DNA of 64,000 bases. Source: a virus. Below the pieces are notes generated by a model that saw nothing but the letters and a program-made list of their open reading frames with translations, was not told the origin of the DNA and made no database searches. How positions within the stretch are numbered: the first letter of the stretch is position 1; each line of letters starts with the position of its first letter. Below, piece after piece: positions 10,510-32,177 of this stretch. Location: positions 64,001-128,000 of the IMG/VR virus record IMGVR_UViG_3300024518_000034; one strand, written 5' to 3'. The translations under genes were made by a program, and so were the position numbers.

Positions 10510-10510
10510 T

Positions 10511-14196: not shown

Positions 14197-14537
14197 TAGT
14201 AGACAGGCTTGAGGAAAAAGATTTAGATTTTATTGACTACACTGAAGAAGGAGGGTGCCTTTATCTTGGAAAAGATTGGAAAGATGGAGGTCACCAAACA
14301 TATGTAATAGGATTGTCTAGTAAGATGGTGGTGTTTTTAAAAGAATTAATAAGATATAAATTTGGAGTTATAGATTTAAAAAGTGGATCGTGGCATTATT
14401 TCATTTGGTCTAAGAACAAACCTGGAATTATTTGTACTATGTATCATAAGTTTAACGACAACATAGAGGGGGACTCAAGAAGATTTTGGAGAGTGATAAG
14501 ACTGTTAGCGGGAAATTTGAGGGCAAGAGATGAGTGA
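14139..14537 (+). CDS. Hypothetical protein (start uncertain)
   Basis: Fills the gap between GT genes; overlaps the upstream gene by 58 nt. Confidence 0.5.
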   Translation: MGRVGKAAQRDISNAYRYLIVDRLEEKDLDFIDYTEEGGCLYLGKDWKDGGHQTYVIGLSSKMVVFLKELIRYKFGVIDLKSGSWHYFIWSKNKPGIICTMYHKFNDNIEGDSRRFWRVIRLLAGNLRARDE

Positions 14538-15444
14538 ACCAAAAATTAGTGTACATATATTGGCGAAGGAAACCACAGAGCTTGGAAACAGACTGTTTGA
14601 GTCATGTGTTCAATCTATATTGGATGCAGACTATGCGTATGAAATTATAATAGTTGATAACGGGTGTGAACCGGGACTTGTTGATGGGCAGTGGGGAGAA
14701 TGCCAAATAACAGTAATAGACGGAACAAACATTGCTGACTTTGCTGCATTAAGAAATCTAGCTTTAGAATACACAGGAAAAGATTGTACACATTTTCATT
14801 GGATTGACACTGATGAGTGCTATCCAAAAGAGACTTTATCAAAGCTAAAGGAAATGGCTAAAAATGATAATATTTCAGCAATAACTACGTGGTTTTGGCA
14901 CTTTATGATTGATCCTACACAATGGCAAGAACAACAGAATAAAACGAACTTCTACAAGCTTGTCCCAGGAATAAAATGGGAATTGCCAGTTCATGAGCAT
15001 CTAGTTGGATATGATAAAACGAAGGTGGCCCATCTGAACGCTTCATATCATCACTATGGATACATTAGGCCACAATGGGTCCAGGCGTTGAAGTGGATAA
15101 AGTATGACGTGTGGCAAAAAGGAAACGCAAATCATTATCGAGAATATTACGACGGAGGTTGGGAAAAGGTGGTAGACTATTATAGCGATGAAAGAACGCC
15201 AGATCAATGTTTAGAAGATCGCAGATCTTATTGCTCTAAATATATAGGGAATCACACGGATGGGTTTGAAAAGAATATAATAGAACCATGGATAGATAGT
15301 GGTAAGACCTGGAATGAGTGGCTTAAGACGATTAACGATTGCACAATGTGGGACGAGTGGGAAGAGAAGAGAAAAGAGTTGGGTTCGTGGAAAGACACAA
15401 TAAGTTGGGCATGTGAACGATATGGATTGAAAGAAAATGAATAA
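14530..15444 (+). CDS. Glycosyltransferase family 2 (GT-A)
   Basis: ISVHIL, IIIVDNG, FAALRNLAL, WIDTDE (DxD), VHEHL, HHYGY. Confidence 0.9.
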   Translation: MSEPKISVHILAKETTELGNRLFESCVQSILDADYAYEIIIVDNGCEPGLVDGQWGECQITVIDGTNIADFAALRNLALEYTGKDCTHFHWIDTDECYPKETLSKLKEMAKNDNISAITTWFWHFMIDPTQWQEQQNKTNFYKLVPGIKWELPVHEHLVGYDKTKVAHLNASYHHYGYIRPQWVQALKWIKYDVWQKGNANHYREYYDGGWEKVVDYYSDERTPDQCLEDRRSYCSKYIGNHTDGFEKNIIEPWIDSGKTWNEWLKTINDCTMWDEWEEKRKELGSWKDTISWACERYGLKENE

Positions 15445-15628
15445 AGCAACGCTAGAGAAAAACTACAAATTAACCTTGCAACTTACAGATGAAGAGATTC
15501 AGAACTATAAAGTGATATTGCATACATTTAAGACGTTGGGGGACAAGTCAGGTATAGCTGCAAAATATCCTGGTGCCGCGCTTTTAGCAGATGCCATTTT
15601 GTATTCTATTGAAGGAGACAACGAATGA
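15437..15628 (+). CDS. Hypothetical protein
   Basis: Overlapping start/stop with both neighbours. Confidence 0.55.
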   Translation: MNKATLEKNYKLTLQLTDEEIQNYKVILHTFKTLGDKSGIAAKYPGAALLADAILYSIEGDNE

Positions 15629-16338
15629 CAGTAGGAATGTTGATTTGCTCTTTTAACGACCTGGAATTAAGTAAAGTAATGTATCCATCTTTAGTTAAGT
15701 CAATGCCTAGTCATATTCCTTATGGAATTGTTGTAGTGGATGGCGGATCAACAGATGGATCGCTAGAGTTTTGGAAATCGAAGGCACCCGTGATACATCC
15801 AGGCGATTCAGATTTGCTAAAGCAGTTAAACGCTGAACCTGGAGATTTGAGACACTTATCTAGATCCTTAAATGTGGGAGGTAAGTATTTAATGGATAGT
15901 GGAGAGTATTCTCACATATTACACCCACATCCTGACATGGAATTTCCCCAAGAGGGGTGGGTAGAGACAATGGTCAATTATCTCAAAAAAGAGCCAAAAA
16001 TAGCTAAATTATCAGCAGATTGGGACCATTTGAGAATGGGAGATAGAGAGGGAAATCAATGCCCGTGGATAATGCCGGTTTCTGTAATCAAAGAAATGAT
16101 TGAAGGTGATGGATATTGGTTCGATCCAGAGTTTAGAGGGATTGGTGGAAGTGAAGACTGGGATCTAAATTGCAGGTTGATCAACAAGGGGTATCGTGTT
16201 ACAATTACATCTGATGCAATAGTAGAGCATGAGGGAATGGGAACTAGGGGTCAAAAGGGAAGAGACACTAACCAGGATGCTCTGTACAATAGAGGTTATT
16301 ATGTGAGCAAGTGGGGAACGCACATGTCCCCAGTATAG
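15625..16338 (+). CDS. Glycosyltransferase family 2
   Basis: VVVDGGSTDGS, HPDM (DxD-like), GSEDWDLNCRL, IVEHEG. Confidence 0.88.
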   Translation: MTVGMLICSFNDLELSKVMYPSLVKSMPSHIPYGIVVVDGGSTDGSLEFWKSKAPVIHPGDSDLLKQLNAEPGDLRHLSRSLNVGGKYLMDSGEYSHILHPHPDMEFPQEGWVETMVNYLKKEPKIAKLSADWDHLRMGDREGNQCPWIMPVSVIKEMIEGDGYWFDPEFRGIGGSEDWDLNCRLINKGYRVTITSDAIVEHEGMGTRGQKGRDTNQDALYNRGYYVSKWGTHMSPV

Positions 16339-16346
16339 GAGATAAA

Positions 16347-16625
16347 ATGACAGTTAAAGAAGCAAAGAAGGCAGTGTACGGATTTATTGAAGACACAGAT
16401 CTTACAACGAGAGATGCGCTTGATTTTACTGAATTAGTAAATGACTTAATTGAGGCTGCAAAAGAAGAACAGAAAAGTTCATACGATGGTGAATTGCAGA
16501 GACTATATCATCTAATATATAATCAAGCTGTAAGTGCAGCAAGAGAAGCATTTGTACAAGGGATGAGGCCTCCTGAGAACAGTGAAGAGGCGAAAGAAGA
16601 GGTTGAGGAAGTTGCAAATGTCTAA
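16347..16625 (+). CDS. Hypothetical protein
   Basis: ATG at 16347 preceded by AGGAG. Confidence 0.6.
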   Translation: MTVKEAKKAVYGFIEDTDLTTRDALDFTELVNDLIEAAKEEQKSSYDGELQRLYHLIYNQAVSAAREAFVQGMRPPENSEEAKEEVEEVANV

Positions 16626-17526
16626 ACCAAGAGTTGCTATAGTTATGACCACTATGAATCTTAAGTGGACAAAAATGGCATTACCAGATCTTATCGAGAA
16701 TACTAAGTATCCTTACGATCTAATATTGGTGGACGATTGCACTACAGATGAAGCTAGAAAATTTATCTGGAGTGGATATAAAGAAGTAGAAGACGCTTCG
16801 AAAGCGTTAAATAAGAAAATCGTTTGTTTTTCTACGGGAGAAGAGGACAGGCGAGGAGTTGCAGGATGTTGGAATATTGGGTTGGAAAAAGCGATAGAAG
16901 GTGATTATGAATATTGTTTGATTATGAACAATGACATAGCTTTTCCTGCACCAAAAGATGATAAATGCTGGCTTGAGAGACTAGTAGATTTGGGAGACAG
17001 TAATAAAGATTATGCTTGGCTGTCTCCAGCTTGGCATTGGACAGGTGAACCAGAAGCGGGAGGAATTAAGTGTTTTAAAGCTTCCTGTTGGGATTACACA
17101 GAAAAGCATAAAGATCAAATAGACGATGGAGGAATTGGGTGCTTCTTTATGCTTAGGATGGCTGATGTTAAGTGGATGAAGAATTCAGAAGAAGCTAAAG
17201 GTGAAGAGAATCATCCAGGCTTGTTTGATAAAACATCATATCCAACTAACTGGGAAGAAGTGGATTATTTGATAAGATTGAGGAGAAAAACCTCAATAAA
17301 GGTTAAAAATAAAACAGGAACATTTCACGCTGTAGCATTATATCATAAAGGTAGTGGTACAACGGGGTCGCCCGAATGGCATGGAAAAGTTAAAGTAGAT
17401 TACCAAACGGGACATGTCAACTTTTGTAAGAAATGGAATCTTCCTCATCCAAATAGTGGGTTTGGAGTGCATAATGCAATATATGAATATGTTAATAAAG
17501 ATGGCAAATGGGAAAAGGCAACATAG
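16618..17526 (+). CDS. Glycosyltransferase family 2
   Basis: LILVDDCT, GVAGCWNIG, IMNNDI, WEEVDYLIRL, LYHKG. Confidence 0.87.
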   Translation: MSKPRVAIVMTTMNLKWTKMALPDLIENTKYPYDLILVDDCTTDEARKFIWSGYKEVEDASKALNKKIVCFSTGEEDRRGVAGCWNIGLEKAIEGDYEYCLIMNNDIAFPAPKDDKCWLERLVDLGDSNKDYAWLSPAWHWTGEPEAGGIKCFKASCWDYTEKHKDQIDDGGIGCFFMLRMADVKWMKNSEEAKGEENHPGLFDKTSYPTNWEEVDYLIRLRRKTSIKVKNKTGTFHAVALYHKGSGTTGSPEWHGKVKVDYQTGHVNFCKKWNLPHPNSGFGVHNAIYEYVNKDGKWEKAT

Positions 17527-17534
17527 GAGGTGAA

Positions 17535-18539
17535 ATGATTTTAGCAGAATACATATGGATAGATGGAACAACGCCAACAGCGAGGTTAAGATCAAAAACG
17601 AAAGTGTTAACTTTGGAAGACGAAGGAATTTGTCCAGATTGGAACTTTGATGGGTCGTCTACAAATCAGGCTGATGGAGACGATTCAGATGTTAAGCTTA
17701 AAGTTGTAAGAACGGTAAAAGATCCATTTAGAAAAGGTACGAATTACCTTGTTTTGTGTGAATGCACAACTCATGATGGCAAGCCTGTAGAAAGTAATGC
17801 AAGAGCTAAATTGAGAGCGCTGCTGGAGAGTGGTGTTAGAAAAAAGCATGAGCCGTGGGTTGGCTTTGAACAAGAATATACATTAATTGATGAAATATCT
17901 GGGAAACCAAAGGGATTCCCAGAGAGGGGATATCCATCACCGCAAGGGCCATATTATTGTGGAACAAATATACCAGGAAGGGTGGTAATGGAGAGGCATC
18001 TGCAGGCATGCATTGAGGCTGGGTTGAAAATTACGGGTACAAATGCTGAAGTCATGGTTGGGCAGTGGGAATATCAGATTGGCCATGGAGATCCGCTAGA
18101 GATTAGTGATCATCTGTGGATAGCTAGATATCTCTTGGAGAGGATAGCAGAGGAAGAGGGGGTAGGCGTAAGTTTGGAAAATAAACCAGTAAAAGGCGAT
18201 TGGAACGGATCAGGCGCACATTTAAACATATCTATTAAATCAACAAGAGAGAAAAACGGATTAGAGGCTATTGACAAAGTTATATCGAAGTTGAAAAAGT
18301 GTCACAGGGAACATATATTGGAGTATGGGCATGGGTTGGGAGAGAGACTTACTGGTGAACACGAGACTTGTCATATTGGTGAGTTTAAGTGGGGTGTAGC
18401 AGATAGAACTGCATCCATTAGAATTCCTTATAAAGTTTATAAGGATAAGAGGGGGTATTTTGAAGATAGAAGGCCAGGGGCCAATATTGATCCATATCGA
18501 GCATGTAGAAGGATGCTACAAACAATAGCAAGTGAATAA
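17535..18539 (+). CDS. glnII: Glutamine synthetase type II
   Basis: EYIWIDG, WNFDGSSTNQA, GFEQEY, PQGPYYCG, NAEVMVGQWEYQIG, DWNGSGAH, RLTGEHET, FEDRRPGANIDPY; SD GGAGG. Confidence 0.95.
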   Translation: MILAEYIWIDGTTPTARLRSKTKVLTLEDEGICPDWNFDGSSTNQADGDDSDVKLKVVRTVKDPFRKGTNYLVLCECTTHDGKPVESNARAKLRALLESGVRKKHEPWVGFEQEYTLIDEISGKPKGFPERGYPSPQGPYYCGTNIPGRVVMERHLQACIEAGLKITGTNAEVMVGQWEYQIGHGDPLEISDHLWIARYLLERIAEEEGVGVSLENKPVKGDWNGSGAHLNISIKSTREKNGLEAIDKVISKLKKCHREHILEYGHGLGERLTGEHETCHIGEFKWGVADRTASIRIPYKVYKDKRGYFEDRRPGANIDPYRACRRMLQTIASE

Positions 18540-19026
18540 AAAATGTACAAAGTGTAATTCAAGTAAAGATATTTCTAATTTTTATAAAGATAAGCACAAT
18601 AAGGATGGGTATAATTATAGATGTAAATTTTGTGTGAATCAAGGAAATACGTGCAGTGAATGCGGTAAAAGTATTACAAAAAGATCAAAATATTGCGATA
18701 GGTGTTGTAAAATTGGAGTGAAAAATCCTGACTGGAAGGGCGGCAGAGTTGTAAGAGGGTCTGGCTATGTTAGGGTTAAGATGCGAGATCATCCGAATGC
18801 GCACGTTGATGGCTATGTATTTGAACACGTAATGATAATGTCTAAAATGATAGGAAGACCATTGTTAAAAAAAGAAACAGTACATCATAAAAATGGAATT
18901 AAAAATGATAATAGACTAGAAAATCTTGAATTGTGGAGTTCAGATCATCCTTCTGGTCAAAGAGTAAAAGATTTAGTAAAGTGGGCTAAAGAGATACTTA
19001 GAAAATATGGTGATAGATGCGACTAG
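18532..19026 (+). CDS. Free-standing HNH endonuclease with N-terminal Zn fingers
   Basis: CxxC pairs; EHVMIM, VHHKNGIKNDNRLENLELW. Confidence 0.9.
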   Translation: MNKKCTKCNSSKDISNFYKDKHNKDGYNYRCKFCVNQGNTCSECGKSITKRSKYCDRCCKIGVKNPDWKGGRVVRGSGYVRVKMRDHPNAHVDGYVFEHVMIMSKMIGRPLLKKETVHHKNGIKNDNRLENLELWSSDHPSGQRVKDLVKWAKEILRKYGDRCD

Positions 19027-19580
19027 AACTTGGACCAGGAAACGATCCGTCACCGGGTTTTGATTACTATGTAGACATTGCTCCTCTTGATCATGTAACT
19101 CATGTGCTTGATTTTGCCAAACAAGGACTGCAAGGTTTTGAGGATAACAGTCTTGATGAAATCTTAGCTATACATTTTCTTGAGCATTTACCACAAGGCA
19201 AGCAAAGTTATTTTTTTGCTGAATGTAAGAGAAAACTAAAAGTGGGCGGCAAGCTTGTAGTACATGTACCAAACTTAGAAACGATATTTAGAGCATATGA
19301 GTGTTTTAAAAATAATAACCAATATGATGCGCTTATGACAGAGCTTCAATCGATGTTATTTGGTGTACACAATGGTGATGTTTATTCTGTGCATAAAATA
19401 GCGTATAATTGGCAAATATTAGAGAAAATGTTTCACAATCATGGGTATGAGCCTGTGAGAAACCTAACAGGAATAAAAAAGGACAGACACACTGTTGGTT
19501 GGGAGTGGGTCACAAAGTATATAAGAGATGCTGGTGGAGTCACACCAGAATTTAGTTTAATAGTAGAAGGGAAAAAATAA
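19017..19580 (+). CDS. Class I SAM-dependent methyltransferase
   Basis: RLELGPG motif I, VDI, DEILAIHFLEHL, LKVGG. Confidence 0.85.
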   Translation: MRLELGPGNDPSPGFDYYVDIAPLDHVTHVLDFAKQGLQGFEDNSLDEILAIHFLEHLPQGKQSYFFAECKRKLKVGGKLVVHVPNLETIFRAYECFKNNNQYDALMTELQSMLFGVHNGDVYSVHKIAYNWQILEKMFHNHGYEPVRNLTGIKKDRHTVGWEWVTKYIRDAGGVTPEFSLIVEGKK

Positions 19581-20560
19581 TGAAATCACCGGGAAAAAAG
19601 TTTAAAGAATTAATCGAAAAAGATGGATATATTTTTACAGGTGGAGTATACGATGCTATATCTGCAAAAGTAGCAGCGATGGCTGGAATGAAGGCTTTGT
19701 ATTTGTCAGGATATTCTCAGTCATTGGGGTTGCTTGGAAGATCAGATATGGAATTTGTACAGAGACATCAGGCTGTTGACAATTCGAGAAGAGTAGCAGA
19801 GTCACTAGAAGATGGCGGATTTGATGTCCCAGTAATCGCAGATGCAGATACAGGCTATGGGTCAGTTAATCAGGTTCAATACACTGTGAGGTCGTTTGAG
19901 CGTGCTGGTGTTGCAGGTGTACATCTAGAGGATCAAACGATTCCTAAGAGGTGCGGGCATATTGCAGGAAAGACAGTGCTTCCTATGGAGGAAAGCGTTG
20001 GAAAGATTGCAGCAGCAGTTGATGCAAAAACGGACAAGGATTTCATTATTATAGCAAGAACTGATGCATTGGGTGCAGCCGGTGGATCTATGGAAGATGC
20101 AGTTAAGAGAGCTATCGCGTACCACGACGCAGGTGCTGACATGGTATGGTGCGAGTTTGGCAGTGCATCTAGAGAGTTAGCTAAAGAGTTTGCATATCTT
20201 ACAACATCGTTAAGACCAAAAATGGGTTTGGCTTTTAACTATTCTTCGTCATTTAAGTGGCACGAGCAAAAAGAGCCTATGGTCGCTGAAGAATTGCACG
20301 AGATGGGCTATACATTTATGTTTGTAACATTGTTTGGTATTCATGCTGCAACGCTAAGCTTGTATAATCATTTTGAAAATATGTATGTAGACGGACCAGT
20401 GGCTCAGTGGGATTTAGAAGTGCTTAAGAAAAATCATCCAACGGAGAGTCATCACGTCATGGGAGATACTGCAACATATCAAGCAGTAGAGCAGAAGTTT
20501 CTGCCAACTGTGGCAACTGAAAGAATTGAAGCATCAGAAGGATATAAGGAAGAAAAATAA
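19580..20560 (+). CDS. aceA: Isocitrate lyase (ICL/PEP-mutase superfamily, short type)
   Basis: ADADTGYG, HLEDQTIPKRCGH catalytic motif, IARTDA, LAFNYSSSFKW, HPTESHH. Confidence 0.8.
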   Translation: MKSPGKKFKELIEKDGYIFTGGVYDAISAKVAAMAGMKALYLSGYSQSLGLLGRSDMEFVQRHQAVDNSRRVAESLEDGGFDVPVIADADTGYGSVNQVQYTVRSFERAGVAGVHLEDQTIPKRCGHIAGKTVLPMEESVGKIAAAVDAKTDKDFIIIARTDALGAAGGSMEDAVKRAIAYHDAGADMVWCEFGSASRELAKEFAYLTTSLRPKMGLAFNYSSSFKWHEQKEPMVAEELHEMGYTFMFVTLFGIHAATLSLYNHFENMYVDGPVAQWDLEVLKKNHPTESHHVMGDTATYQAVEQKFLPTVATERIEASEGYKEEK

Positions 20561-20561
20561 T

Positions 20562-21551
20562 ATGCATCCAAGTGAAGCGTTAGTTGAAAGAGGGACTAAG
20601 GATATACCAACAATGTCGCCAGTTGAACATTTCTGCGGGACGGAAAAGTTTGTAAAGAAAGCGATGAAAATTCAGCAAGAGAGAAATGGTGATTTTGACA
20701 TTACTATCGATCTGGAAGATGGTGCGCCAAAAGGTAAAGAGAAAGACAACCTTGATATGGCTATTGCTATGATCAAGTCAGACGACAATAAGTTTAATAG
20801 AATAGGTGTACGTATCCATGACCCAGGAAACGATTGGTGGTTTAAAGAGGCTAATTTATTGAGAGAAGAAGTTGGAGATAGATTAGCTTATATAACTTTG
20901 CCAAAAGTTCTAGGTGCGGAAGATGTAATGAAAATGAGAACAACGCTTTTTAGGTCAAACCTTTCTCTGCATGTAATCATTGAAACGCTTGAGGCGTTTC
21001 AGAATTTAGATGACATTTTAAAAGTACACAATGTAGATTTAGTAGATTTTGGCCTTATGGACTTTACATCTGCCCACCAGGGAATTCTTTCAAGAGATGT
21101 AATGAAATCGCCGCAGCAGTTTACAAACCCATTGATGCAATATTATAAGTCACAGTTTGTGGCAAAAGCCTTGGCAGCAGGTAAAGTGCCAGCACACAAT
21201 GTAACAGTGGATGTTGGTAAAAAGGACTTAGCATATAAAGACGCAGCAACAGCAAGAAACGATTTCGGCTTCTTGCGTATGTGGTCCGTCTTTCCTGCTC
21301 AGATAGATGAAATTATGAGAGGCATGGCGTCAGCATATAATCTCTTGCAGTTGAAGGCGTATTCTGATATCCTATGTAAGGCTCAAGAAGCGGACTGGGG
21401 TCCAATCGGTTATATGGGTAAGATGGAAGACAGAGCAACGTATAGACTTTATTGGCAGACTCTGAAGAGAGCAAGAAGTGTAACTGGAGTTGAAATTCCA
21501 GCAGAAGCAGAAGAAAGATTTTTTAAGGACGTTAAGCTAGTGGGAGCATAA
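20562..21551 (+). CDS. CitE/HpcH-family acyl-CoA lyase (malyl-CoA lyase/malate synthase-like)
   Basis: IDLEDGA, GVRIHD, LPKV, IIETL, FGLMDF, HNVT, GFLRMWSVFPAQI, DRATYR. Confidence 0.85.
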   Translation: MHPSEALVERGTKDIPTMSPVEHFCGTEKFVKKAMKIQQERNGDFDITIDLEDGAPKGKEKDNLDMAIAMIKSDDNKFNRIGVRIHDPGNDWWFKEANLLREEVGDRLAYITLPKVLGAEDVMKMRTTLFRSNLSLHVIIETLEAFQNLDDILKVHNVDLVDFGLMDFTSAHQGILSRDVMKSPQQFTNPLMQYYKSQFVAKALAAGKVPAHNVTVDVGKKDLAYKDAATARNDFGFLRMWSVFPAQIDEIMRGMASAYNLLQLKAYSDILCKAQEADWGPIGYMGKMEDRATYRLYWQTLKRARSVTGVEIPAEAEERFFKDVKLVGA

Positions 21552-21554
21552 AAA

Positions 21555-21905
21555 ATGTATTTAAACAAGTATCAAGAAGAAGCGACAAGAACAGCTAGGA
21601 ATTTTGAAGACGTTGAAATGGGGCCAACCAAGTTGGCCCTAGCTAATTGGGCGCTAGGTTTAGCAGGTGAAGCAGGAGAGGCGGCAGAGCTTGTAAAAAA
21701 GCATGTATTTCACGGACATGAGTTAGATTTGGCTGAAGTTAGAAAAGAGCTAGGTGATGTGTTGTGGTATATAGCTAATCTGGCTGAAACTGTGGGACTG
21801 GAAATGGAAGATATAGCTAAGGCTAATATTGAAAAGTTGAAAGCTAGATATGGTGATGGGTTTTCAGAAGAGAAATCTCAAAATAGAGTAGAATATAGCA
21901 ACTAA
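21555..21905 (+). CDS. MazG-like NTP pyrophosphohydrolase
   Basis: LGLAGEAGE, KELGDVLWY, NIEKLKARY. Confidence 0.9.
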   Translation: MYLNKYQEEATRTARNFEDVEMGPTKLALANWALGLAGEAGEAAELVKKHVFHGHELDLAEVRKELGDVLWYIANLAETVGLEMEDIAKANIEKLKARYGDGFSEEKSQNRVEYSN

Positions 21906-22816
21906 TGAACATATTAATGCTTTTTGCTTTTACTGATAAACCAGCCTCTCCAGCTTGGTATATCAGAAGGTCTTTTCTTCGTATGGGTCATAGTATAACT
22001 ACGATGGGCCATAATTGTGAGATTAATACTAAAGGTAAAAATCCTTATCAAACTCAAAACATTCACAGTATAATAAAAAAGAAGAATATTGATCTAGTTT
22101 TGGAAATAGACTCTGGAGGTTTTGACATAAGTTGGAACCCTGGACCTTTGAAGAATCAATATAAGAATGTTAAATTTGTATACTGGGGATCAGATACACA
22201 CTTGGGAACTGTTGCAGGAGTGTATGGGAACAAGAGAAAAAGATACGATTTGGCATTTTTCGCACAGAAGAAGTTTATTGATGATCAGCATATGTCTCAC
22301 AGGTATTGGTTACCACACGCATGTGATCCAGAATTTCACAATCCAGACATAAAAGACAAGAAGAAGATTCACGATGTAACATTTATTGGACATAAGCATC
22401 CTACGGTACATGGTAAAAGAATTACCTTGCTTCAAATGATTAAAAATGATAGAATAAACATTAATGACAGGTGTTATATTTATACAGATAAGATGGGTGC
22501 TGAGTTCGTTAAAAGCAGAATTGTGTTGAATTGTTCATTGAATGGCGACTTAAATATGAGGTTTTTTGAAGCCATGTGTTCTGGTGCATGTTTGCTGACT
22601 GATTGGTCAGATCATGGAGGTTTTACAGAACAAGGATTTAAAAGAGGGGAACATTATTGTGCTTACGATAGTAATCGTCATGCGGTGACAGCGATAAGAG
22701 CATTGCTTAACGACCATGAGAAAAGAAAGAGAATAGCTAAGGCTGGACAAAAGTATGTTTTGGAAAATCATACCTATGATAATAGGGCGAAAAAAATATT
22801 AAGTTTTGTAGAATGA
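21905..22816 (+). CDS. GT-B glycosyltransferase (CgeB/YkvP-like)
   Basis: WLPHACDP, VTFIG, LNCSLNGDLNMRFFEAMCSGACLLTD, HTYDNRA. Confidence 0.87.
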   Translation: MNILMLFAFTDKPASPAWYIRRSFLRMGHSITTMGHNCEINTKGKNPYQTQNIHSIIKKKNIDLVLEIDSGGFDISWNPGPLKNQYKNVKFVYWGSDTHLGTVAGVYGNKRKRYDLAFFAQKKFIDDQHMSHRYWLPHACDPEFHNPDIKDKKKIHDVTFIGHKHPTVHGKRITLLQMIKNDRININDRCYIYTDKMGAEFVKSRIVLNCSLNGDLNMRFFEAMCSGACLLTDWSDHGGFTEQGFKRGEHYCAYDSNRHAVTAIRALLNDHEKRKRIAKAGQKYVLENHTYDNRAKKILSFVE

Positions 22817-23295
22817 GCAGCACTGTTGATTATTTTGGTATTGTTTACGGAAGGAATCAAACAATGAATTGGAAATATTACGAACTAGTTGAAGGCGTGC
22901 ATAATAAGTTTTGGATGATAGCTAGACATGAAGATGGAAAAGGATTCACGGCGCGATGGGGGAAAATTGGAACAACTGGTCAAATGCAAATGAAGAATTT
23001 TTCAAGCGTAAGTAGGACTATAAAAGCCTTTAATGACAAAGTGTGGGAGAAAACTAAAAAGAGGTATGTATTAAAACATCATGGGGATGATTTCTTGACA
23101 GCGGAAGGTGCTAATGCGTATAGGCCTGGTCGCCCAATTACGGAAACTATGAAGTACTTCAGAAGAAGAGATCCAATCGTACATGATCCAAATAAGACAA
23201 TCACACCGGCACCAAAGAAGAAAAAAGCTAAAGGTAAGAAGACTGCGATAAAGCCAAAGTTTAAAATAAGAATAAGGAAAAGAAAAGCAGAATGA
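22813..23295 (+). CDS. WGR-domain protein with basic tail
   Basis: YYEL-NKFWMI-ARWGKIGTTGQ-EKTKKRY. Confidence 0.8.
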   Translation: MSSTVDYFGIVYGRNQTMNWKYYELVEGVHNKFWMIARHEDGKGFTARWGKIGTTGQMQMKNFSSVSRTIKAFNDKVWEKTKKRYVLKHHGDDFLTAEGANAYRPGRPITETMKYFRRRDPIVHDPNKTITPAPKKKKAKGKKTAIKPKFKIRIRKRKAE

Positions 23296-24281
23296 AGATA
23301 GCAATGTTGACAACATGGGATGTCCGATGTGGTATCGCACAAAACTCAAAGTTTTTAGTAGATGCATTAATTGAAGCTGGACATGAGGTGGGATTATTTG
23401 TTCAATTTAGTAATGATATTGAAAAGAAAGAAAGAGTGCCTCCTTCCTGCATCCATAGAAGAGATAAGAATGGCGAGTATTGGTCATATTTTAAATTATG
23501 GCGATGTTGGAGTTGGTATGGGAGATCAGATAAAGTAGAATTTGATGTAGAACCAATTAAGGAATTTAAGCCAGACGTGATTCACGTTCAATATGAGTCA
23601 TTCCTTTGGCATGAATCATACTTGCCGCAACTAAAAGGTATAGCACCGATAGTAATAACCCACCATTCGTCTTGTACGGGTCCAGGTTGTCCTGTAAATG
23701 AAGCACAGGCTAATGTTGTACACGATGAAGAGTTTCCCGCTTTACCTAATAGGAGAATAATCCCTATGGGCATTCCAGACACCTTTGATTTTGTTAATTT
23801 CGAAGACACAGAACCAGTAATGGGTTCGTTTGGATTGCACAGAAATAATGATGACTATTGTAAGGAGGCCATGACTTTGGTCAGTAAAGCGTTGTCAGCA
23901 CCTATTCATTATAGAACACATTATGGCAATTCAAAATGGGTTCCAACAGAAGAACTGGTAAAAATCTTACAGAAGAATAGAATGTTGGCTTTGATTTATC
24001 CAAAAACAGGCGCTGTGGTGTCGAGTAGTGCAGCATGTGTAGCTTTGGGGGCAGGACTTCCTGTATTATGTTCAAACACTAGGTGGTTTAAACATTTAAG
24101 TAAATATGTACATCTTATTGATACTGTAGAAGAGATGGCTCACATTATAGGTCATTATATGGTAGAGGAAGATTTTTGGAATATTGCAAGAGATAGGGCT
24201 ACGCAGGCCAGAGAAGAAAGAGGCTGGAGTAAGATTGCTAAACAACACGAGAATCTATATAAGGAGATTTTAAATGGATGA
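23292..24281 (+). CDS. Glycosyltransferase family 4-like
   Basis: KIAMLTTWDVRCGIA, DVIHVQYE, SSSAACVALGAGLPVLCS, WSKIAKQHENLY. Confidence 0.82.
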   Translation: MKIAMLTTWDVRCGIAQNSKFLVDALIEAGHEVGLFVQFSNDIEKKERVPPSCIHRRDKNGEYWSYFKLWRCWSWYGRSDKVEFDVEPIKEFKPDVIHVQYESFLWHESYLPQLKGIAPIVITHHSSCTGPGCPVNEAQANVVHDEEFPALPNRRIIPMGIPDTFDFVNFEDTEPVMGSFGLHRNNDDYCKEAMTLVSKALSAPIHYRTHYGNSKWVPTEELVKILQKNRMLALIYPKTGAVVSSSAACVALGAGLPVLCSNTRWFKHLSKYVHLIDTVEEMAHIIGHYMVEEDFWNIARDRATQAREERGWSKIAKQHENLYKEILNG

Positions 24282-26477: not shown

Positions 26478-27939
26478 ATATAGGCTACATCAATTAACAG
26501 ACGAAGAACTGTGTAGTGATAGTATGGTTAGAAGTGCTGCTGATGAGGAAAATTATCCTGGGTTTGAATTTAGACCGCTAAGAAAAAAGGATTATTTTAG
26601 TCCAGAGAAAGAGATGGAAGTGCCTATGGCTCCTATGGATTTATATAATGAATTAGGAGAAGCGATAACAGAAGAAGAAAGACAGGTAGAACAAGGAGGA
26701 TTTCCTTCTATACCTGAAAAAGAAAGAAACCTTCCTCAAATGAGGGAGGAAAGAAGAGATCTGGAAGATCCAGAAGCTGCAATGCGTGTGTTAGGAGTAT
26801 ATTCTGAAAGATTTGAGGAGATTGCTGATAAGGTTTTTCAAATAAAGCGAGGATTGAAATCTATCACTGACGAGATTGAAAAAAAGAAAGAAGAACATAA
26901 AGCTAATGTTGAAATTGTAAGAACGTTAGCGATACGTGATAAAATATATCACACAATGAACACGGCAATAATACCTATATTTAAAACACATAGGAGAATA
27001 ATATGGGCAGTCCAGCAAGAAATCAAAAGGACAACTAAAGAATCTAGTTGGTATACAACACCTGAAGAGATTGAAGAGTTAAACGCTAAATATCCAAGAA
27101 GAGAACCTTTCAGATATGAAACTACGTCAAAAGGCGTTCGTTTCTTGAGAATGAGAGAGTTTAAGGATAGGTGGGTAGATGATAGAGAAGAAGAAAATAA
27201 AATCTATCAAAACATGGGCAATGCTGTAGCTTCTGCGTGGCAATCCTATGAGAGAGCGCTGAGACTTAAGGGTGAATTTTTGATAAGATATGCACAGCAG
27301 GATAATCTCTTAATGGCCCTAGAGAGTCTCGCAAATGATATGGAAGTTTTGGCGCAAGCAGCTTCGGAATTGGCAGAGCGAGATAGACAGACGGAAATGG
27401 CACTTGGGGCAGAATTGGAGATGCCTAAGGCAGCAAAATTAATTTCCCCAGATAACTTTTCTAAGATAGCTGTTGAAACTTTAGATGAGTTTTTGCAGCC
27501 GCCAATGATGTCAGATTTAGACGAAGAGGAACAAGGAATTCCTCCAGCCCAGCCAATAATGGATGATGGGACTCTAGAGCCTATTCCAGTAGACGATGAT
27601 GAATTTTTAAGACTTAAGTTTCCTGAAAATGATAGGATGCCTGAGTCGATGTGGGCAAAAATTCAATTTGCTGGAGCTAAGAATCTTTTAATAAGTATAA
27701 CTTATACAAAGATCACCCCACCTGAAGAAGGAATGACTAAGTCGTATGTCGTTGAACCATATTCGTTTAGATTGAAGCGACCAAGGCGCACAGGAGGCGG
27801 CTCACAGTATTATTTCTTTGCATATGATACAGAGGATCACCATATTAAAGGTTTTATATACAGGCGTATTCAGAGTATAGAAATATTGCCAGAGAGTTTT
27901 GATCCTAGATGGGAGGTTGAATTTCATTGGGCAGATTAG
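26413..27939 (+). CDS. Coiled-coil protein with C-terminal WYL-like domain (true start possibly 26524)
   Basis: C-terminal ISITYTK-YVVEPYSFR-YFFAYDTEDHHIKGFIYRRIQSI fits the WYL pattern. Confidence 0.7.
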   Translation: MGKRNVAHIKMENIQKKKKLLKYRLHQLTDEELCSDSMVRSAADEENYPGFEFRPLRKKDYFSPEKEMEVPMAPMDLYNELGEAITEEERQVEQGGFPSIPEKERNLPQMREERRDLEDPEAAMRVLGVYSERFEEIADKVFQIKRGLKSITDEIEKKKEEHKANVEIVRTLAIRDKIYHTMNTAIIPIFKTHRRIIWAVQQEIKRTTKESSWYTTPEEIEELNAKYPRREPFRYETTSKGVRFLRMREFKDRWVDDREEENKIYQNMGNAVASAWQSYERALRLKGEFLIRYAQQDNLLMALESLANDMEVLAQAASELAERDRQTEMALGAELEMPKAAKLISPDNFSKIAVETLDEFLQPPMMSDLDEEEQGIPPAQPIMDDGTLEPIPVDDDEFLRLKFPENDRMPESMWAKIQFAGAKNLLISITYTKITPPEEGMTKSYVVEPYSFRLKRPRRTGGGSQYYFFAYDTEDHHIKGFIYRRIQSIEILPESFDPRWEVEFHWAD

Positions 27940-28451
27940 GTAAGTGTATTTGGTTATATGGGTTGTCAGGATCGGGAAAGTCCACGATTGCAAATGAGCT
28001 TTTGATGAGGTGGGGGCCGTTTCACGTCACTTTATTAGATGGAGATGAAGTGAGAAAAAACTTATCTTATGGGTTAGGATTTTCTAAAGAGGATAGAGAA
28101 AGACACGCACTGAGGGTGGCGTGGGTTGCAGCAGAAATAGTAAGACATGGAGGAACTGCAATAGCTGCTTTAATTACACCTTATGAATCTACTAGAGAAA
28201 AAATAAGAGAAATTGTAGGAAAAGAAAATCTTATTGAAGTTTATGTGGATACTGCCTTAGAGGAGTGTGAAAAGAGAGATCCTAAGGGGTTGTATAAGAA
28301 AGTTAGAGCGGGCGAAATTAAAAATTTTACTGGAATAAGTGATCCTTTTGAGTTTCCAAAAGAAGATCCAGACGTAATTATAGATACTTCAAAATGCTCA
28401 CCAATTGATGCTGTGGGCAAAATATATAAAGTTTTAATGGACAATGAATAG
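27927..28451 (+). CDS. cysC: Adenylyl-sulfate (APS) kinase
   Basis: WLYGLSGSGKSTIA, LDGDEVR, LGFSKEDRE, ITPY, RDPKGLYKK, FTGISDPFE. Confidence 0.95.
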   Translation: MGRLGKCIWLYGLSGSGKSTIANELLMRWGPFHVTLLDGDEVRKNLSYGLGFSKEDRERHALRVAWVAAEIVRHGGTAIAALITPYESTREKIREIVGKENLIEVYVDTALEECEKRDPKGLYKKVRAGEIKNFTGISDPFEFPKEDPDVIIDTSKCSPIDAVGKIYKVLMDNE

Positions 28452-29541: not shown

Positions 29542-30168
29542 ATGTCTAAAATCTTAGTAAAGAAAAAAAAGAAAGAATCACTTCCAGCGCTGACGCGACA
29601 CCAGAACAAAATAGAGAGATTTAAGTTGGAAGAAATTGTAGTTGATGCGTATGTCAATAAAAGTTGTACGGTTGCTCAGGTAGTTAAGAGATGTCAAGCT
29701 GATCTGACCAAAAGAGGGGTAAACGTAAAGATAAATAAAACTAACGTAAGAAATTACATAAAAAAGATTAGAAATAAGTTGGCAAAACTTGATCAAGATT
29801 TCTTTCAAGATGTAATTCAGGACGCAGGCGTAGTAGACAAGATAAAGAATCTGTCTGCATTGGTTAAAAGTGGGTGGCATAGAAGACAAGCCATAGTTGA
29901 AGACATGGAAGCTTGTTTTGAAAAGGGAGACAGAGACGGTTTTCAAAAGGCTGTTAGGCTAGATCAACAAAATGACGCACTTATGGCTGATATAGTTACA
30001 AAACTAGCTACACTGGAGAGTAAGTTACAAACAACCGTTACTATAGAATTCGTAGCGAGCTTGGCACAAAAAATGACAGATGTTGTGTTGGGTTTTGACG
30101 GCATCGATGGATTGGCCAAAGAACATTTGGTTGTAAAAATGTCTAAAATGATAGACTTTGGTGGCTAA
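29542..30168 (+). CDS. Putative terminase small subunit
   Basis: N-terminal HTH-like region plus helical body directly upstream of terL. Confidence 0.55.
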   Translation: MSKILVKKKKKESLPALTRHQNKIERFKLEEIVVDAYVNKSCTVAQVVKRCQADLTKRGVNVKINKTNVRNYIKKIRNKLAKLDQDFFQDVIQDAGVVDKIKNLSALVKSGWHRRQAIVEDMEACFEKGDRDGFQKAVRLDQQNDALMADIVTKLATLESKLQTTVTIEFVASLAQKMTDVVLGFDGIDGLAKEHLVVKMSKMIDFGG

Positions 30169-32177
30169 TGAGAACATTTAGAGAAGAAGCACAACGAATA
30201 CAAGAAGCGATGTTGGACAGAGTGTCTTCTTTGAGAGCAGAACCCAAAAAGAAAATATTAGTTCCAAAAACTGTATGGGAACAATATCCTGTAAGTCCAC
30301 ATGAATTTATAAATGGAAGAGATTTCTTACACGATACCAAAGGTGATATTTGGCCAGCGCTAAGAGCAGACATGGAAACTATCTTTGCTGGTGAAGATAG
30401 CAAGGGGAGAGAAGACTATAGTCCAATTTGCAATGTATTCTTAGATTGTGAAGGGTTGGGGTCTGGTAAGTCAACAAAAGTTGTGCTTTTCATTTGTTAT
30501 ATAACTTATTGGTTGCATTGTTTGAAAGATCCGTATGGGTATTTTGGACTAGGCGACCTAGGGTCAACCATGGCTGTTATGAATATAGCGCCAAAAGAAG
30601 AAAAAGCTAAAAGAATTATTTACAATAGGCTTTTCTCAATGATTCACAGAATTCCTTGGTTCAGGGATATGGGATACATTCCAGATAAGAGATTTAGAAA
30701 CGAACTAAGATTTTATAAAAACAAGCAAACTCTTAGTATGAAAAAGGATGACTTAGATCAGTTTATATCGCCATTTCTAGTCTTAAGACCAGGATCAGGT
30801 AAAATTTCTTCTGCTGTAGGTGAAGATTTGTACGCAGGAATCGTTGACGAAGCTTGCTCTGAGGACGGCTTTGAGTTGATGGATGGAACGGACAGATGTG
30901 AAGACATTTTTGAAGTAATGCATACAAGAAGGAAATCAAGATTTGGCGATAAAGGTATAAACATGTTTATATCGTCTGCCGGTACTGAAGATCGCTGGAT
31001 GGAACGTATGATTCAAGAGGTAGAAGAACATAGAGCTATTCATCAGACTACAGGTGAAATAACTGAAATAGCTGACATGAAGATAATTCATCGTCGCAGA
31101 CCTTCCTATAAAGCAAACCCAAGATACAAAAATAGTAAAACATTCCATTACACAGTTACTAAAGATACTGAAAAAGGAATTCAATTGGTATATGAATTAG
31201 ACATACCAGTTGAATTTAAGAGAGATATGGAGTTGAAGCCTGAGAAAATGTTGAGAGACATTTGCGCTTTACCAACTCTTGCACACAATCCATTCTTTGC
31301 TGAGTGGGCTAGAATTAGAGATAATGTAAACAAGCAGAGGCGAGATCCGCTACCTGATAATGGTAACGAAATGTCATTAGCACCATTATGTAAGAAATGT
31401 TTGGGATTGCATAGAAACGATTCTACACCGTGCGCGTGGGAAATGTTGCCAGGGTGGTTCAAAGGAGAAAAGGGAGTACATTACTACGTTCATATCGACC
31501 TAGGAACGGGTGGCACAAAAAAATCAAAACGAGATGGTGCAGGTCTTGCAATCGCGCATCGTGGTCCAGATGTAGAATATAATGGAACTATGTTACCAAG
31601 CGTTGTTGTTGATCTGGCTGTTAGATTTAAAGCATCTAAGAAAAAGATGACAATTAGAAAACAAGACGGTGGTAAAACATCATCTTCTAAGAGAGTAGAA
31701 GAAATAGATATAGCTTCAGTTAGAGAGTTTATACTAAAGTTAGATAGAGAAAGAGGATTTAAGTTCGCAAAAATAACATATGATGGTTTCCAGAGTCTTG
31801 AAACACTGCAAACGTTCCAAAAATTAGGGTACTTAGCAGAAAGGGTTTCGTGTACAAAAGATTCTTGGGACAACTTAAGAACTTTATGGTACGACGGAAG
31901 AGTTGACATATTTCAGGATAACTGGCTATTGTATGAGATGAGTAAGTTGGAAGACAAGGGAGCCAAAGTAGATCACGCTGTTGGAGCTTCAGACGATGAA
32001 GGGCAGGCAGTGGCAAGAGCTATAGAAATGGCAATTGAAGGAGAAGTTCCAGAAGTTAAGAAGCCTAGATCAATACCGAGAGCGGGAGGATTTAGGGGAA
32101 TAGCAAATACAAATCCAGCAGTAAATCAATCAAGGGCAAGAAAAGGTGGGAATGCAGGACTGCCCCACTTTAAATAG
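30168..32177 (+). CDS. terL: Terminase large subunit
   Basis: Walker A EGLGSGKST, Walker B GIVDEA, nuclease VHIDLG, ITYDGFQS, KVDH-SDDEGQAVA. Confidence 0.88.
   Translation: MRTFREEAQRIQEAMLDRVSSLRAEPKKKILVPKTVWEQYPVSPHEFINGRDFLHDTKGDIWPALRADMETIFAGEDSKGREDYSPICNVFLDCEGLGSGKSTKVVLFICYITYWLHCLKDPYGYFGLGDLGSTMAVMNIAPKEEKAKRIIYNRLFSMIHRIPWFRDMGYIPDKRFRNELRFYKNKQTLSMKKDDLDQFISPFLVLRPGSGKISSAVGEDLYAGIVDEACSEDGFELMDGTDRCEDIFEVMHTRRKSRFGDKGINMFISSAGTEDRWMERMIQEVEEHRAIHQTTGEITEIADMKIIHRRRPSYKANPRYKNSKTFHYTVTKDTEKGIQLVYELDIPVEFKRDMELKPEKMLRDICALPTLAHNPFFAEWARIRDNVNKQRRDPLPDNGNEMSLAPLCKKCLGLHRNDSTPCAWEMLPGWFKGEKGVHYYVHIDLGTGGTKKSKRDGAGLAIAHRGPDVEYNGTMLPSVVVDLAVRFKASKKKMTIRKQDGGKTSSSKRVEEIDIASVREFILKLDRERGFKFAKITYDGFQSLETLQTFQKLGYLAERVSCTKDSWDNLRTLWYDGRVDIFQDNWLLYEMSKLEDKGAKVDHAVGASDDEGQAVARAIEMAIEGEVPEVKKPRSIPRAGGFRGIANTNPAVNQSRARKGGNAGLPHFK

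What the first reader, a model, noticed from the sequence alone, without database searches (positions are those of the whole stretch)
27927..28451. APS kinase (CysC) suggests a phage PAPS-dependent sulfation system with the distant sulfotransferases
Seen: an intact CysC here and two sulfotransferase-like genes at 62276 and 63777. Established: CysC makes PAPS, the universal sulfotransferase donor. Inference: the phage diverts host APS to PAPS to sulfate its glycans, so GTs, methyltransferases, CysC and sulfotransferases form a dispersed sulfated-glycan decoration system. CysC sits among genes leading to the terminase, consistent with late, virion-directed use.
Basis: partly seen in the sequence, partly recalled or inferred. 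Interest (0 to 1): 0.8.

Follow-up and report, generated by a model that had tools for sequence, protein, structure and literature searches.

The report
Scattered phage sulfate-activation and sulfation genes
This uncultured 192-kb phage has an intact APS kinase that most likely makes the sulfate donor PAPS for three phage sulfotransferases in a sugar-chain gene cluster 34 kb away. Elsewhere it also carries two small genes that sit beside, or are fused to, APS kinase in many other phages, which suggests viral cysC serves sulfation rather than sulfur assimilation.

Summary
Window 27927-28451 encodes a complete APS kinase (CysC) that passes curated thresholds and keeps every catalytic motif.

The "sulfotransferase-like" genes are real sulfotransferases, not kinases, and there are three of them. 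The third lies beyond the window end.

The genome has no classical ATP sulfurylase (Sat or CysD), no CysH and no CysQ. It does carry two other small genes:
- a 123-aa HxGH nucleotidyltransferase ("tinyNT", genome 14955-15326);
- a DUF2061 membrane protein (genome 35788-36012).

In other viral records these two families lie directly beside CysC or are fused to it. One 107-kb record (L061) holds DUF2061, CysC, tinyNT and an ST1-type sulfotransferase within 5 kb.

Of 23 CysC-bearing viral records, 14 have tinyNT and 2 have CysD. None has both. Genes around viral CysC are mostly sulfotransferases and sugar-nucleotide enzymes, not reductive sulfur genes.

Best reading (0.65): a dispersed phage pathway that makes PAPS for glycan sulfation. 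That tinyNT is a minimal ATP sulfurylase is inferred, not shown. The acceptor and the "late, virion-directed" timing are untested.

This scan has noted CysC, tinyNT and sulfotransferase modules before on other phage DNA. The papers I read treat viral cysC as an assimilation gene.

The parts
27927..28451 (+). APS kinase (CysC), 174 aa, TTG start. It overlaps the upstream ORF by 13 nt and the downstream ORF by 8 nt.
   Evidence: PF01583 E 2.1e-52. TIGR00455 above its cut-off. PDB 2gks E 1.1e-46. All catalytic motifs are invariant. GGAGG lies 10 nt upstream of the start.
62276..62830 (+). ST1, a minimal 184-aa sulfotransferase with a QRSGTT 5'-PSB loop and an R84...S92 3'-PB motif.
   Evidence: PF13469 19.9 bits, N-terminal part only. 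Across the 56-member family, G14, R17-T21, R84 and S92 are invariant. 39 of 56 members score Sulfotransfer_3. Fold searches cannot separate it from small kinases.
63777..64000 (+). ST2, a sulfotransferase of 264 aa. Only its first 74 codons are in the window; it ends at genome 128571, which would be window coordinate 64571.
   Evidence: PF13469 45.6 bits and PF00685 41.2 bits, both above their cut-offs. All 25 weak PDB hits are sulfotransferases, and the TRDGRDVIRS stretch aligns to their 3'-PB motif.
61536..62279 (+). Class I methyltransferase, the first gene of the glycan and sulfation cluster. The cluster continues beyond the window with GT15, an FkbM methyltransferase, ST3, a GT10 fucosyltransferase, an STM4013-type hydrolase and GT2, up to genome 136172.
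   Evidence: Pfam scans.
62831..63805 (+). Radical-SAM/SPASM protein lying between ST1 and ST2; its role is unknown.
   Evidence: PF04055 E 3e-14 and PF13186 E 2e-12. It is not an anaerobic sulfatase maturase by the curated cut-off: 38.7 bits against 349.
10745..24281 (+). Glycosyltransferase island 1 (GT1/GT4, GT2, CgeB-like, GT4 and a methyltransferase, interrupted by metabolic genes). It ends 3.6 kb upstream of CysC on the same strand.
   Evidence: Pfam scans.
30168..32177 (+). Large terminase subunit, 1.7 kb downstream of CysC in the same tightly packed gene run.
   Evidence: tblastn to annotated terminases, about 25% identity over 87-90% of the query, E down to 7e-36. No Pfam or PHROG hit.

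Best explanation
The phage encodes a dispersed sulfation pathway. CysC (window 27927-28451) phosphorylates APS to PAPS. Three phage sulfotransferases, embedded in a glycosyltransferase and methyltransferase cluster 34-41 kb downstream, use PAPS to sulfate a phage-built glycan.

Two further scattered genes probably belong to the same pathway:
- tinyNT, a 123-aa HxGH adenylyltransferase-like protein at genome 14955-15326 (minus strand). It is inferred to make APS from ATP and sulfate, that is, to act as a minimal ATP sulfurylase.
- A 74-aa DUF2061 membrane protein at genome 35788-36012, of unknown role.

Shown: gene identities, motif integrity, and the linkage or fusion of these families in other genomes. 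Inferred: all enzyme activities, the coupling of the genes within this phage, the acceptor and the timing.
For: 1. CysC is complete and under conservation.

2. The genome has three sulfotransferase genes. It has no Sat, CysD/CysH or CysQ, so PAPS has no phage-encoded reductive use.

3. In 18 CysC-bearing IMG/VR records, 10 have a Sulfotransfer_3 hit. Among 7 non-redundant ones, 5 lie within 7 kb of CysC; the chance expectation gives P = 0.0011.

4. I scanned 150 ORFs within 5 kb of CysC in 13 non-redundant loci. They give 9 sulfotransferase-family hits (6 Sulfotransfer_3, 3 Sulfotransfer_1; these may overlap on the same ORFs), 7 NDP-sugar epimerase/dehydratases, methyltransferases, RgpF, GT2, 5 DUF2061 and 4 CTP_transf_like. 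Only 2 are CysD/CysN, and no CysH pathway appears.

5. tinyNT has tblastn homologues (30-34% identity) directly downstream of, or fused to, CysC in 8 of the 18 loci. All 9 longer database homologues are APS-kinase fusions. Of its 149 best cluster representatives, 46 carry APS_kinase (best E 9e-63) and 5 weakly hit the ATP-sulfurylase model. 28 of the 63 fused representatives keep DGDxxR.

6. In 23 CysC-bearing viral records, 14 have tinyNT and 2 have CysD; none has both. The only weak PF01747 hits fall inside tinyNT ORFs.

7. The tinyNT model (pLDDT 94.5) aligns with Thermus ATP sulfurylase 1v47 at Z 8.9, rmsd 3.2, over 115 of 123 residues. NMNAT and PPAT score Z 10.

8. DUF2061 is present at 58.4 bits. 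It is fused to or adjacent to CysC in 9 of the 18 loci. It also lies in Mesorhizobium nod loci with nodH, nodP and nodQ (10.1101/2022.04.26.489235).

9. L061 has DUF2061, CysC, tinyNT and an ST1-type gene within 5 kb. CysC and tinyNT are also far apart in the complete records G015 (35 kb) and G023 (15 kb).
Against: In this phage none of the four components is adjacent to another: tinyNT is 77 kb, DUF2061 56 kb and ST1 34 kb from CysC. Co-expression is unknown.

Only 5 of 49 viral records with an ST1-type gene carry CysC, though many of these are fragments. Phage sulfotransferases can therefore run on host PAPS.

tinyNT has never been assayed. Its closest solved folds are NMNAT and PPAT. No classical ATP-sulfurylase HMM hit exists in this genome.

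Its own neighbours are an RNA ligase and an HNH protein, not sulfur genes.

Two cultured phages with a kinase-tinyNT fusion, Xylella phage Sano and Stenotrophomonas phage DLP6, have no detectable Sulfotransfer_3 or ST1-type gene.

The host, and whether it assimilates sulfate through PAPS or APS, is unknown.
Confidence: 0.65

Rival explanations
1. CysC is an auxiliary metabolic gene for assimilatory sulfate reduction. It raises host PAPS so that host CysH and CysIJ make more sulfide and cysteine for phage protein synthesis, and it is unrelated to the sulfotransferases.
For: This is the published reading of viral cysC (PMC10914622; 10.1101/2021.01.05.425418). In this phage CysC is 34 kb from the sulfotransferases. 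44 of 49 viral records with an ST1-type gene lack CysC.
Against: The genome has no cysH, cysD or Sat. In other phages CysC's neighbours are sulfotransferases and sugar genes, not reductive genes. Neither paper mentions sulfotransferases. The route helps only hosts that reduce PAPS rather than APS, and the host is unknown.
Confidence: 0.15
2. CysC does make PAPS for the phage sulfotransferases, but from host-made APS. tinyNT would be an unrelated adenylyltransferase, for example an NMNAT-type NAD enzyme or an RNA-repair accessory to the adjacent RNA ligase.
For: tinyNT's best fold and NCBIfam matches are NMNAT. It lies next to an RNA ligase, 77 kb from CysC. hhalign against classical Sat fragments aligns only the ISxTxxR motif.
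Against: The NMNAT models match only residues 5-86 and fall far below their cut-offs: 29 bits against 397, and 28.6 against 127. The genome has no NAMPT. All full-length homologues that have a second domain carry an APS kinase. tinyNT and CysD are mutually exclusive among CysC-bearing phages.
Confidence: 0.2
3. The CysC-like protein is a non-catalytic or re-purposed domain. It could be a regulatory PAPS-binding module, as at the C-terminus of fungal ATP sulfurylase, or a kinase for another nucleotide.
For: Inactive APS-kinase-like domains exist: PDB hits 1i2d and 3cr8 appear in the list. The trimmed kinase halves of some tinyNT fusions have NAD in place of DGD.
Against: This protein keeps the P-loop, DGDxxR, LGFSKEDR, the KGLYKK lid and FTG, all invariant against cellular CysC. 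It passes the equivalog-domain cut-off.
Confidence: 0.03

Closest known systems
Bacterial dedicated sulfation loci: NodP/NodQ with NodH (rhizobial Nod-factor sulfation), and RaxP/RaxQ with RaxST
   Same: A private sulfate-activation supply that includes an APS kinase is paired with a PAPS-dependent sulfotransferase acting on a glycan or peptide. DUF2061 occurs in Mesorhizobium nod loci with nodH, nodP and nodQ.
   Different: Those loci use CysD/CysN-type ATP sulfurylase, and their genes are clustered. Here no CysD, CysN or Sat exists, the candidate first enzyme is a 123-aa HxGH protein, and the genes are scattered over about 118 kb of a phage genome.
Viral cysC auxiliary metabolic genes (Kieft et al., 10.1101/2021.01.05.425418; Chen et al. 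2024, PMC10914622)
   Same: It is the same gene family in uncultured aquatic phages with large genomes. The P-loop and DGD motifs are conserved.
   Different: Those papers file cysC under assimilatory sulfate reduction and do not mention sulfotransferases. Here and in the viral records I compared, the partners are sulfotransferases, sugar genes, tinyNT and DUF2061.
Bifunctional PAPS synthases (metazoan PAPSS1/2, PDB 1x6v; Aquifex Sat-CysC, PDB 2gks)
   Same: An APS kinase is coupled to an adenylyltransferase-fold enzyme. Kinase-N plus tinyNT-C fusions have the PAPSS domain order. The tinyNT model aligns to the sulfurylase domain of 1x6v at Z 6.8, rmsd 3.6, over 115 residues, and to 1v47 at Z 8.9.
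   Different: tinyNT is about 120 aa, against about 390 aa for whole single-domain ATP sulfurylases (343-402 residues in the chains). It is not recognised by PF01747 in this genome. In this phage it is a separate gene 77 kb from CysC.
Compact phage modules with CysC, tinyNT, DUF2061 and a sulfotransferase, noted earlier in this scan on other genomes, and L061 here
   Same: The same four families are involved.
   Different: Those modules are operon-like or fused. This phage has every component but none adjacent to another.

Membership tests
APS kinase (CysC, EC 2.7.1.25; PF01583 / TIGR00455) | Profile score above the curated cut-offs | tested here: met
   PF01583 scores 177.6 bits against 21.1. 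TIGR00455 scores 177.7 against 138.7, and NF003013 scores 167 against 163.
APS kinase (CysC, EC 2.7.1.25; PF01583 / TIGR00455) | Walker A P-loop GxxGxGK[ST] | tested here: met
   GLSGSGKST at residues 12-20. G12, G15, G17, K18 and T20 are invariant.
APS kinase (CysC, EC 2.7.1.25; PF01583 / TIGR00455) | DGDxxR and the APS-binding motifs (LGFSxEDR, S/T-P-Y, KGLYKK lid, FTG) | tested here: met
   D38, G39, D40, R43, L50-R57, P85, Y86, R117-Y123 and F134-G136 are invariant in the alignment with cellular CysC.
APS kinase (CysC, EC 2.7.1.25; PF01583 / TIGR00455) | Catalyses APS + ATP to PAPS + ADP | not testable with these tools
   This needs an enzyme assay or cysC complementation.
PAPS-dependent sulfotransferase (Sulfotransfer_1/3) | Profile score above the Pfam gathering cut-off | tested here: inconclusive
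   ST2 is met: 45.6 bits against 27, and 41.2 against 22. ST1 (19.9) and ST3 (21.0) are below 27. However, 39 of 56 ST1-family members match PF13469 at E <= 0.01, best E 7.8e-14.
PAPS-dependent sulfotransferase (Sulfotransfer_1/3) | 5'-phosphosulfate-binding loop (K/R-x-G-T-T/S) without a Walker-A lysine | tested here: met
   ST1 has QRSGTT, invariant in 56 sequences. ST2 has GHSGTS. ST3 has PRTGTS.
PAPS-dependent sulfotransferase (Sulfotransfer_1/3) | 3'-phosphate-binding motif (R ... S) | tested here: met
   In ST1, R84 and S92 are invariant. In ST2, TRDGRDVIRS aligns to the motif of solved sulfotransferases. ST3 was not examined for this motif.
PAPS-dependent sulfotransferase (Sulfotransfer_1/3) | Sulfotransferase fold distinct from nucleotide kinases | tested here: inconclusive
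   The ST1 model has pLDDT 79.8. Small kinases score Z 9.6-8.7 (2axp: rmsd 3.4, 128 aligned). TPST2 scores Z 8.5 (rmsd 4.4, 150 aligned). These are tied.
ATP sulfurylase (Sat, PF01747), considered for tinyNT | PF01747 profile match | tested here: not met
   There is no hit in this genome at E <= 1. Only weak hits occur in 5 of 149 homologues and in the tinyNT ORFs of G016 and G017.
ATP sulfurylase (Sat, PF01747), considered for tinyNT | HxxH nucleotidyltransferase motif and a fold matching the catalytic domain | tested here: inconclusive
   HDGH is present. 1v47 scores Z 8.9, rmsd 3.2, with 115 residues aligned, but NMNAT and PPAT score Z 10.
ATP sulfurylase (Sat, PF01747), considered for tinyNT | Forms APS from ATP and sulfate | not testable with these tools
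   This needs an assay or cysD/cysN complementation.
NMN adenylyltransferase (NadM/NadR/archaeal type), considered for tinyNT | Curated NCBIfam cut-offs and full-length match | tested here: not met
   Scores are 29.2 against 397, 28.6 against 127, and 26.1 against 181. Only residues 5-86 are matched.
NMN adenylyltransferase (NadM/NadR/archaeal type), considered for tinyNT | NAD-salvage partner (NAMPT) in the genome | tested here: not met
   PF04095 is absent.
Anaerobic sulfatase maturase (TIGR03942), considered for the radical-SAM gene between ST1 and ST2 | Equivalog cut-off | tested here: not met
   38.7 bits against 349.45.

The most novel reading that the evidence does not exclude
The 123-aa HxGH protein family (tinyNT) is an unrecognised minimal ATP sulfurylase. 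Together with CysC and DUF2061 it gives phages, and some bacteria, a host-independent way to make PAPS. Viral 'cysC AMGs' in general would then mark phage-driven sulfation of glycans rather than sulfur assimilation. This phage would show that the pathway works even when its genes are scattered across the genome.
Probability: 0.4. Interest if true: 0.8.

Novelty: new variant of a known kind. Interest (0 to 1): 0.6.

Why it matters
Viral cysC is widely counted as evidence that phages boost host sulfur assimilation. Here, and in the 23 CysC-bearing viral records I compared, its partners are sulfotransferases, sugar-nucleotide enzymes, a mini adenylyltransferase and DUF2061. That points instead to phage-directed sulfation of a glycan.

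If this holds, it changes how an often-cited auxiliary gene is read in viromes. It gives a purpose to the phage sulfotransferases that one paper calls of unclear function (PMC10580990). It also nominates a roughly 120-residue enzyme as a new kind of ATP sulfurylase.

All of this can be tested with ordinary enzyme assays and E. coli cys-mutant complementation. Cultured phages such as Xylella phage Sano and Stenotrophomonas phage DLP6 carry the fused form.

Tried and rejected
- Single-protein scan of IMG/VR with the terminase found no relative. The ribonucleotide reductase found only three short contigs, one 89% identical but only 9 kb. I therefore could not check co-occurrence on long contigs of close relatives. 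The evidence is indirect: CysC and ST1 each have 76-87% identical homologues in public data.
I used the single fused protein P0007 instead.
- Fold searches for ST1 do not separate sulfotransferases from small P-loop kinases. I settled this with motifs and the family tally.
- hhalign of the tinyNT profile against classical Sat fragments aligned only the C-terminal ISxTxxR motif. I had considered a parallel between tinyNT's GR(K/D)VGY and Sat's GRDHAG. That alignment does not support it, so I dropped it.
- Complex prediction for CysC with tinyNT gave no verdict, score 0.01.
- tblastn of ST2 against GenBank phages found nothing.
- Reading the radical-SAM gene as an anaerobic sulfatase maturase was rejected on the curated cut-off.
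- A weak Sulfotransfer_2 hit at genome 85270-85554 contains a stop codon and overlaps the ORF at window 20526-21551, which an earlier scan note (not tested here) reads as a CitE-type lyase. I ignored it.
- The scan's 'relatives' look-up for this stretch returned nothing.
Full report
**Setting.** The window is bases 64001-128000 of a single 192,308-bp IMG/VR virus record with CheckV completeness 90%. Coding is mostly on the plus strand. The first 100 bases recur at position 192011, which suggests a terminal overlap. The large terminase at window 30168-32177 is only about 25% identical to any deposited phage terminase. The single-protein terminase scan found no relative in IMG/VR, and other scans found only short contigs of close relatives.

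**The kinase.**
- ORF 27927-28451 (+) encodes 174 aa. It matches APS_kinase PF01583 end to end (E 2.1e-52).
- It passes the NCBIfam equivalog-domain model TIGR00455, 177.7 bits against a cut-off of 138.7.
- It aligns over residues 4-170 with the kinase domain of the Aquifex Sat/APS-kinase 2gks, E 1.1e-46.
- I aligned it with three phage relatives (79-87% identity) and with cellular CysC proteins. The P-loop, DGDxxR, LGFSKEDR, PY, RDPKGLYxK and IKxFTG motifs are all invariant.
- The TTG start has a GGAGG 10 nt upstream, and the relatives begin with the same MGRLGKC.
- The public gene call for this genome is a 148-aa version that starts after the P-loop (P0166). That looks like a mis-called start.
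- CysC overlaps the upstream ORF by 13 nt and the downstream ORF by 8 nt. It lies in a gap-free plus-strand run that reaches the terminase 1.7 kb later.
- It lies 3.6 kb after the last gene of a glycosyltransferase island at 10745-24281.

**The sulfotransferases.** The genome has three, all found by PF13469.
- ST2 (genome 127777-128571) starts at window 63777. It passes the cut-offs of both Sulfotransfer_3 and Sulfotransfer_1. Its only PDB matches, all weak, are 25 sulfotransferases, aligned through the 3'-phosphate-binding motif.
- ST1 (window 62276-62830) scores only 19.9 bits. I collected 99 viral relatives (80 loci kept) and aligned 56 of them. The invariant residues are G14, R17, S18, G19, T20, T21, R84 and S92. 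These form the 5'-phosphosulfate loop and the 3'-phosphate Arg...Ser pair, with no Walker-A lysine. Of the 56, 39 score Sulfotransfer_3, 6 Sulfotransfer_1 and 5 Sulfotransfer_4; only 1 scores a kinase-type AAA family. Structure search alone could not decide: small kinases and tyrosylprotein sulfotransferases tie at Z 8-9.6.
- ST3 (genome 133082-133720) matches PF13469 over its whole length at 21 bits. It shares the PRTGTS loop with the ST1 profile.
- The three genes are interleaved with a class I methyltransferase, a radical-SAM/SPASM protein, GT15, an FkbM methyltransferase, a GT10 fucosyltransferase, an STM4013-type sulfatase-fold hydrolase and GT2. An earlier report of this scan covers that operon.

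**What else the genome has for sulfur.**
- No ATP sulfurylase (PF01747), no CysD or CysH (PF01507) and no CysQ (PF00459).
- Following a lead from earlier scan notes on other phages, I searched for small HxGH nucleotidyltransferases. I found one 123-aa ORF at genome 14955-15326 on the minus strand, called tinyNT here.
- I also found a DUF2061 gene at genome 35788-36012, 58.4 bits against a cut-off of 23.1.

**Is tinyNT tied to CysC?**
- tblastn places homologues (30-34% identity) immediately downstream of, or in the same ORF as, CysC in 8 of 18 CysC-bearing viral loci.
- All nine longer database homologues (39-44% identity over 93% of tinyNT) are APS-kinase (N-terminal) plus tinyNT (C-terminal) fusions. 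One is from a complete Bradyrhizobium genome.
- An exhaustive HMMER search gave 436 cluster representatives. Of the best 149, 128 score CTP_transf_like and 46 score APS_kinase (best E 9e-63). No second-domain family outside the P-loop kinase/NTPase models recurs. Five weakly hit the ATP-sulfurylase model itself.
- 28 of the 63 fused representatives keep DGDxxR. That includes the closest fused one, P0013, at 48% identity.
- In GenBank phages, full-length matches fall in genes annotated 'kinase' or 'adenylylsulfate kinase': Xylella phages Sano, Salvo and Bacata, Stenotrophomonas phages Suzuki and DLP6, and Clavibacter phage 33. Half-length matches are NadM-type NMNATs.
- In this genome, the only good match to the kinase half of the fusions is CysC.

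**Complementarity.** I compared 23 CysC-bearing viral records: 18 and 5.
- 14 have tinyNT (E <= 1e-35).
- 2 have bona fide CysD.
- 2 have a weaker PAPS_reduct protein far from CysC.
- None has both tinyNT and CysD, and none has Sat.
- The only weak PF01747 hits lie inside tinyNT ORFs.

This is the pattern expected if tinyNT fills the ATP-sulfurylase step. CysC and tinyNT are also far apart in two complete records: 35 kb in G015 and 15 kb in G023. Scattering is therefore not unique to this phage.

**Structure of tinyNT.**
- The AlphaFold model is confident, with pLDDT 94.5.
- It matches NMNAT (Z 10.1, rmsd 2.8, 111 residues) and PPAT (Z 10.0).
- It also matches Thermus ATP sulfurylase with APS, 1v47 (Z 8.9, rmsd 3.2, 115 of 123 residues). 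Other ATP sulfurylases score Z 5.4-6.8.
- The fold fits an ATP-using adenylyltransferase stripped of the parts that hold a large acceptor. It does not tell which acceptor is used.
- The NMNAT models of NCBIfam match only the N-terminal two thirds, far below their cut-offs. The genome has no NAMPT.

**DUF2061.**
- It is fused to the N-terminus of CysC, or lies adjacent to it, in 9 of the 18 loci.
- In L061 (a 107-kb record) the order is DUF2061 5302-5517, CysC 5572-6003, tinyNT 7301-7618 and an ST1-type gene 9950-10510. These are the same four families that are scattered in this phage.
- A preprint places a DUF2061 gene in Mesorhizobium nod loci with nodH, nodP and nodQ (10.1101/2022.04.26.489235).

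**Does CysC go with sulfotransferases?**
- Ten of the 18 CysC records have a Sulfotransfer_3 hit.
- Among the seven non-redundant ones, five lie 0.7-3.7 kb from CysC. The chance probability is 0.0011, given contig lengths.
- Pfam families among 150 ORFs within 5 kb of CysC are dominated by sugar-nucleotide enzymes, sulfotransferases, methyltransferases, DUF2061 and CTP_transf_like.
- In the reverse direction, only 5 of 49 records with an ST1-type gene have CysC. CysC is therefore an optional booster, not a requirement. Even so, 10% is well above the 62 per 7,334 genomes reported for freshwater phages (PMC10914622) and the 6 per 50,697 GenBank phage records.

**Caveats.**
- Nothing here shows activity, the acceptor or the timing.
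- Two cultured phages with the fusion lack any detectable sulfotransferase. Either host enzymes use the product or the fusion does something else.
- In 12 alphaproteobacterial and other genomes with the fusion, a sulfotransferase lies within 2 kb in only two.
- A complex prediction for CysC with tinyNT gave no verdict.

**Comparison with the literature.**
- Two papers treat viral cysC as assimilatory sulfate reduction and never mention sulfotransferases.
- A third says the role of phage sulfotransferases is unclear.
- Searches for phage-encoded sulfotransferase systems found nothing. A search for an APS kinase-nucleotidyltransferase fusion listed seven papers, none on this subject by title or abstract; I did not open them.
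- Within this scan the module has been noted before on other phage DNA. What this genome adds is a complete but fully dispersed set.

Noticed in passing
window 26413-27939 and 28444-28770: CysC is flanked by two ORFs that share a weak C-terminal similarity: 31% over 61 aa, E 2e-4. The 108-aa ORF looks WYL-like by language-model features, score 0.92. Neither ORF has a Pfam hit. No homologue was found in the 18 other CysC loci. It could be a ligand-sensing pair around a metabolic gene.
   Followed up: partly
window 27927-28451: The public protein collection holds this gene as a 148-aa product that starts after the P-loop (P0166). The conserved N-terminus and the GGAGG upstream show that the TTG start at 27927 is the real one.
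   Followed up: yes
window 62831-63805, and genome 134550-135341 (L005:10550-11341): A radical-SAM/SPASM protein weakly matches the STM4011 family. A 263-aa sulfatase-fold hydrolase matches the STM4013/SEN3800 family at 161 bits, against a cut-off of 250. This may be a counterpart of an uncharacterised Salmonella gene set inside the sulfation cluster.
   Followed up: partly
window 61195-61542: A 115-aa protein consists only of the RapZ C-terminal domain (PF22740, E 1.8e-22). It lies directly before the methyltransferase and sulfotransferase cluster.
   Followed up: no
window 22813-23295: A WGR-domain protein (PF05406, E 2e-14) lies between two glycosyltransferase genes.
   Followed up: no
window 24704-25333: A 209-aa protein has a sigma-70 region 4 match (E 1.8e-5). 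It stands at the head of the gene run that contains CysC and the terminase.
   Followed up: no
L037 (Xylella phage Sano, NC_042344.1), locus 806-1483 and 4596-5333: In Sano, the kinase-tinyNT fusion gp35 lies 3.1 kb downstream of gp28, which is annotated as cysteine dioxygenase. This is a second sulfur-related gene in a phage that has no detectable sulfotransferase.
   Followed up: no
G000:C1:1-100 and 192011-192110: The first 100 bases of the record recur near its end. This suggests an assembly overlap of a circular or terminally redundant genome, although IMG/VR lists the record as linear.
   Followed up: no
L007:8759-10513 and L013:2721-4793: In two other viral records CysC is the C-terminal part of ORFs of 584 and 690 aa, next to a CysD gene. 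These phages appear to carry the classical CysD/CysN-CysC route instead of tinyNT.
   Followed up: partly
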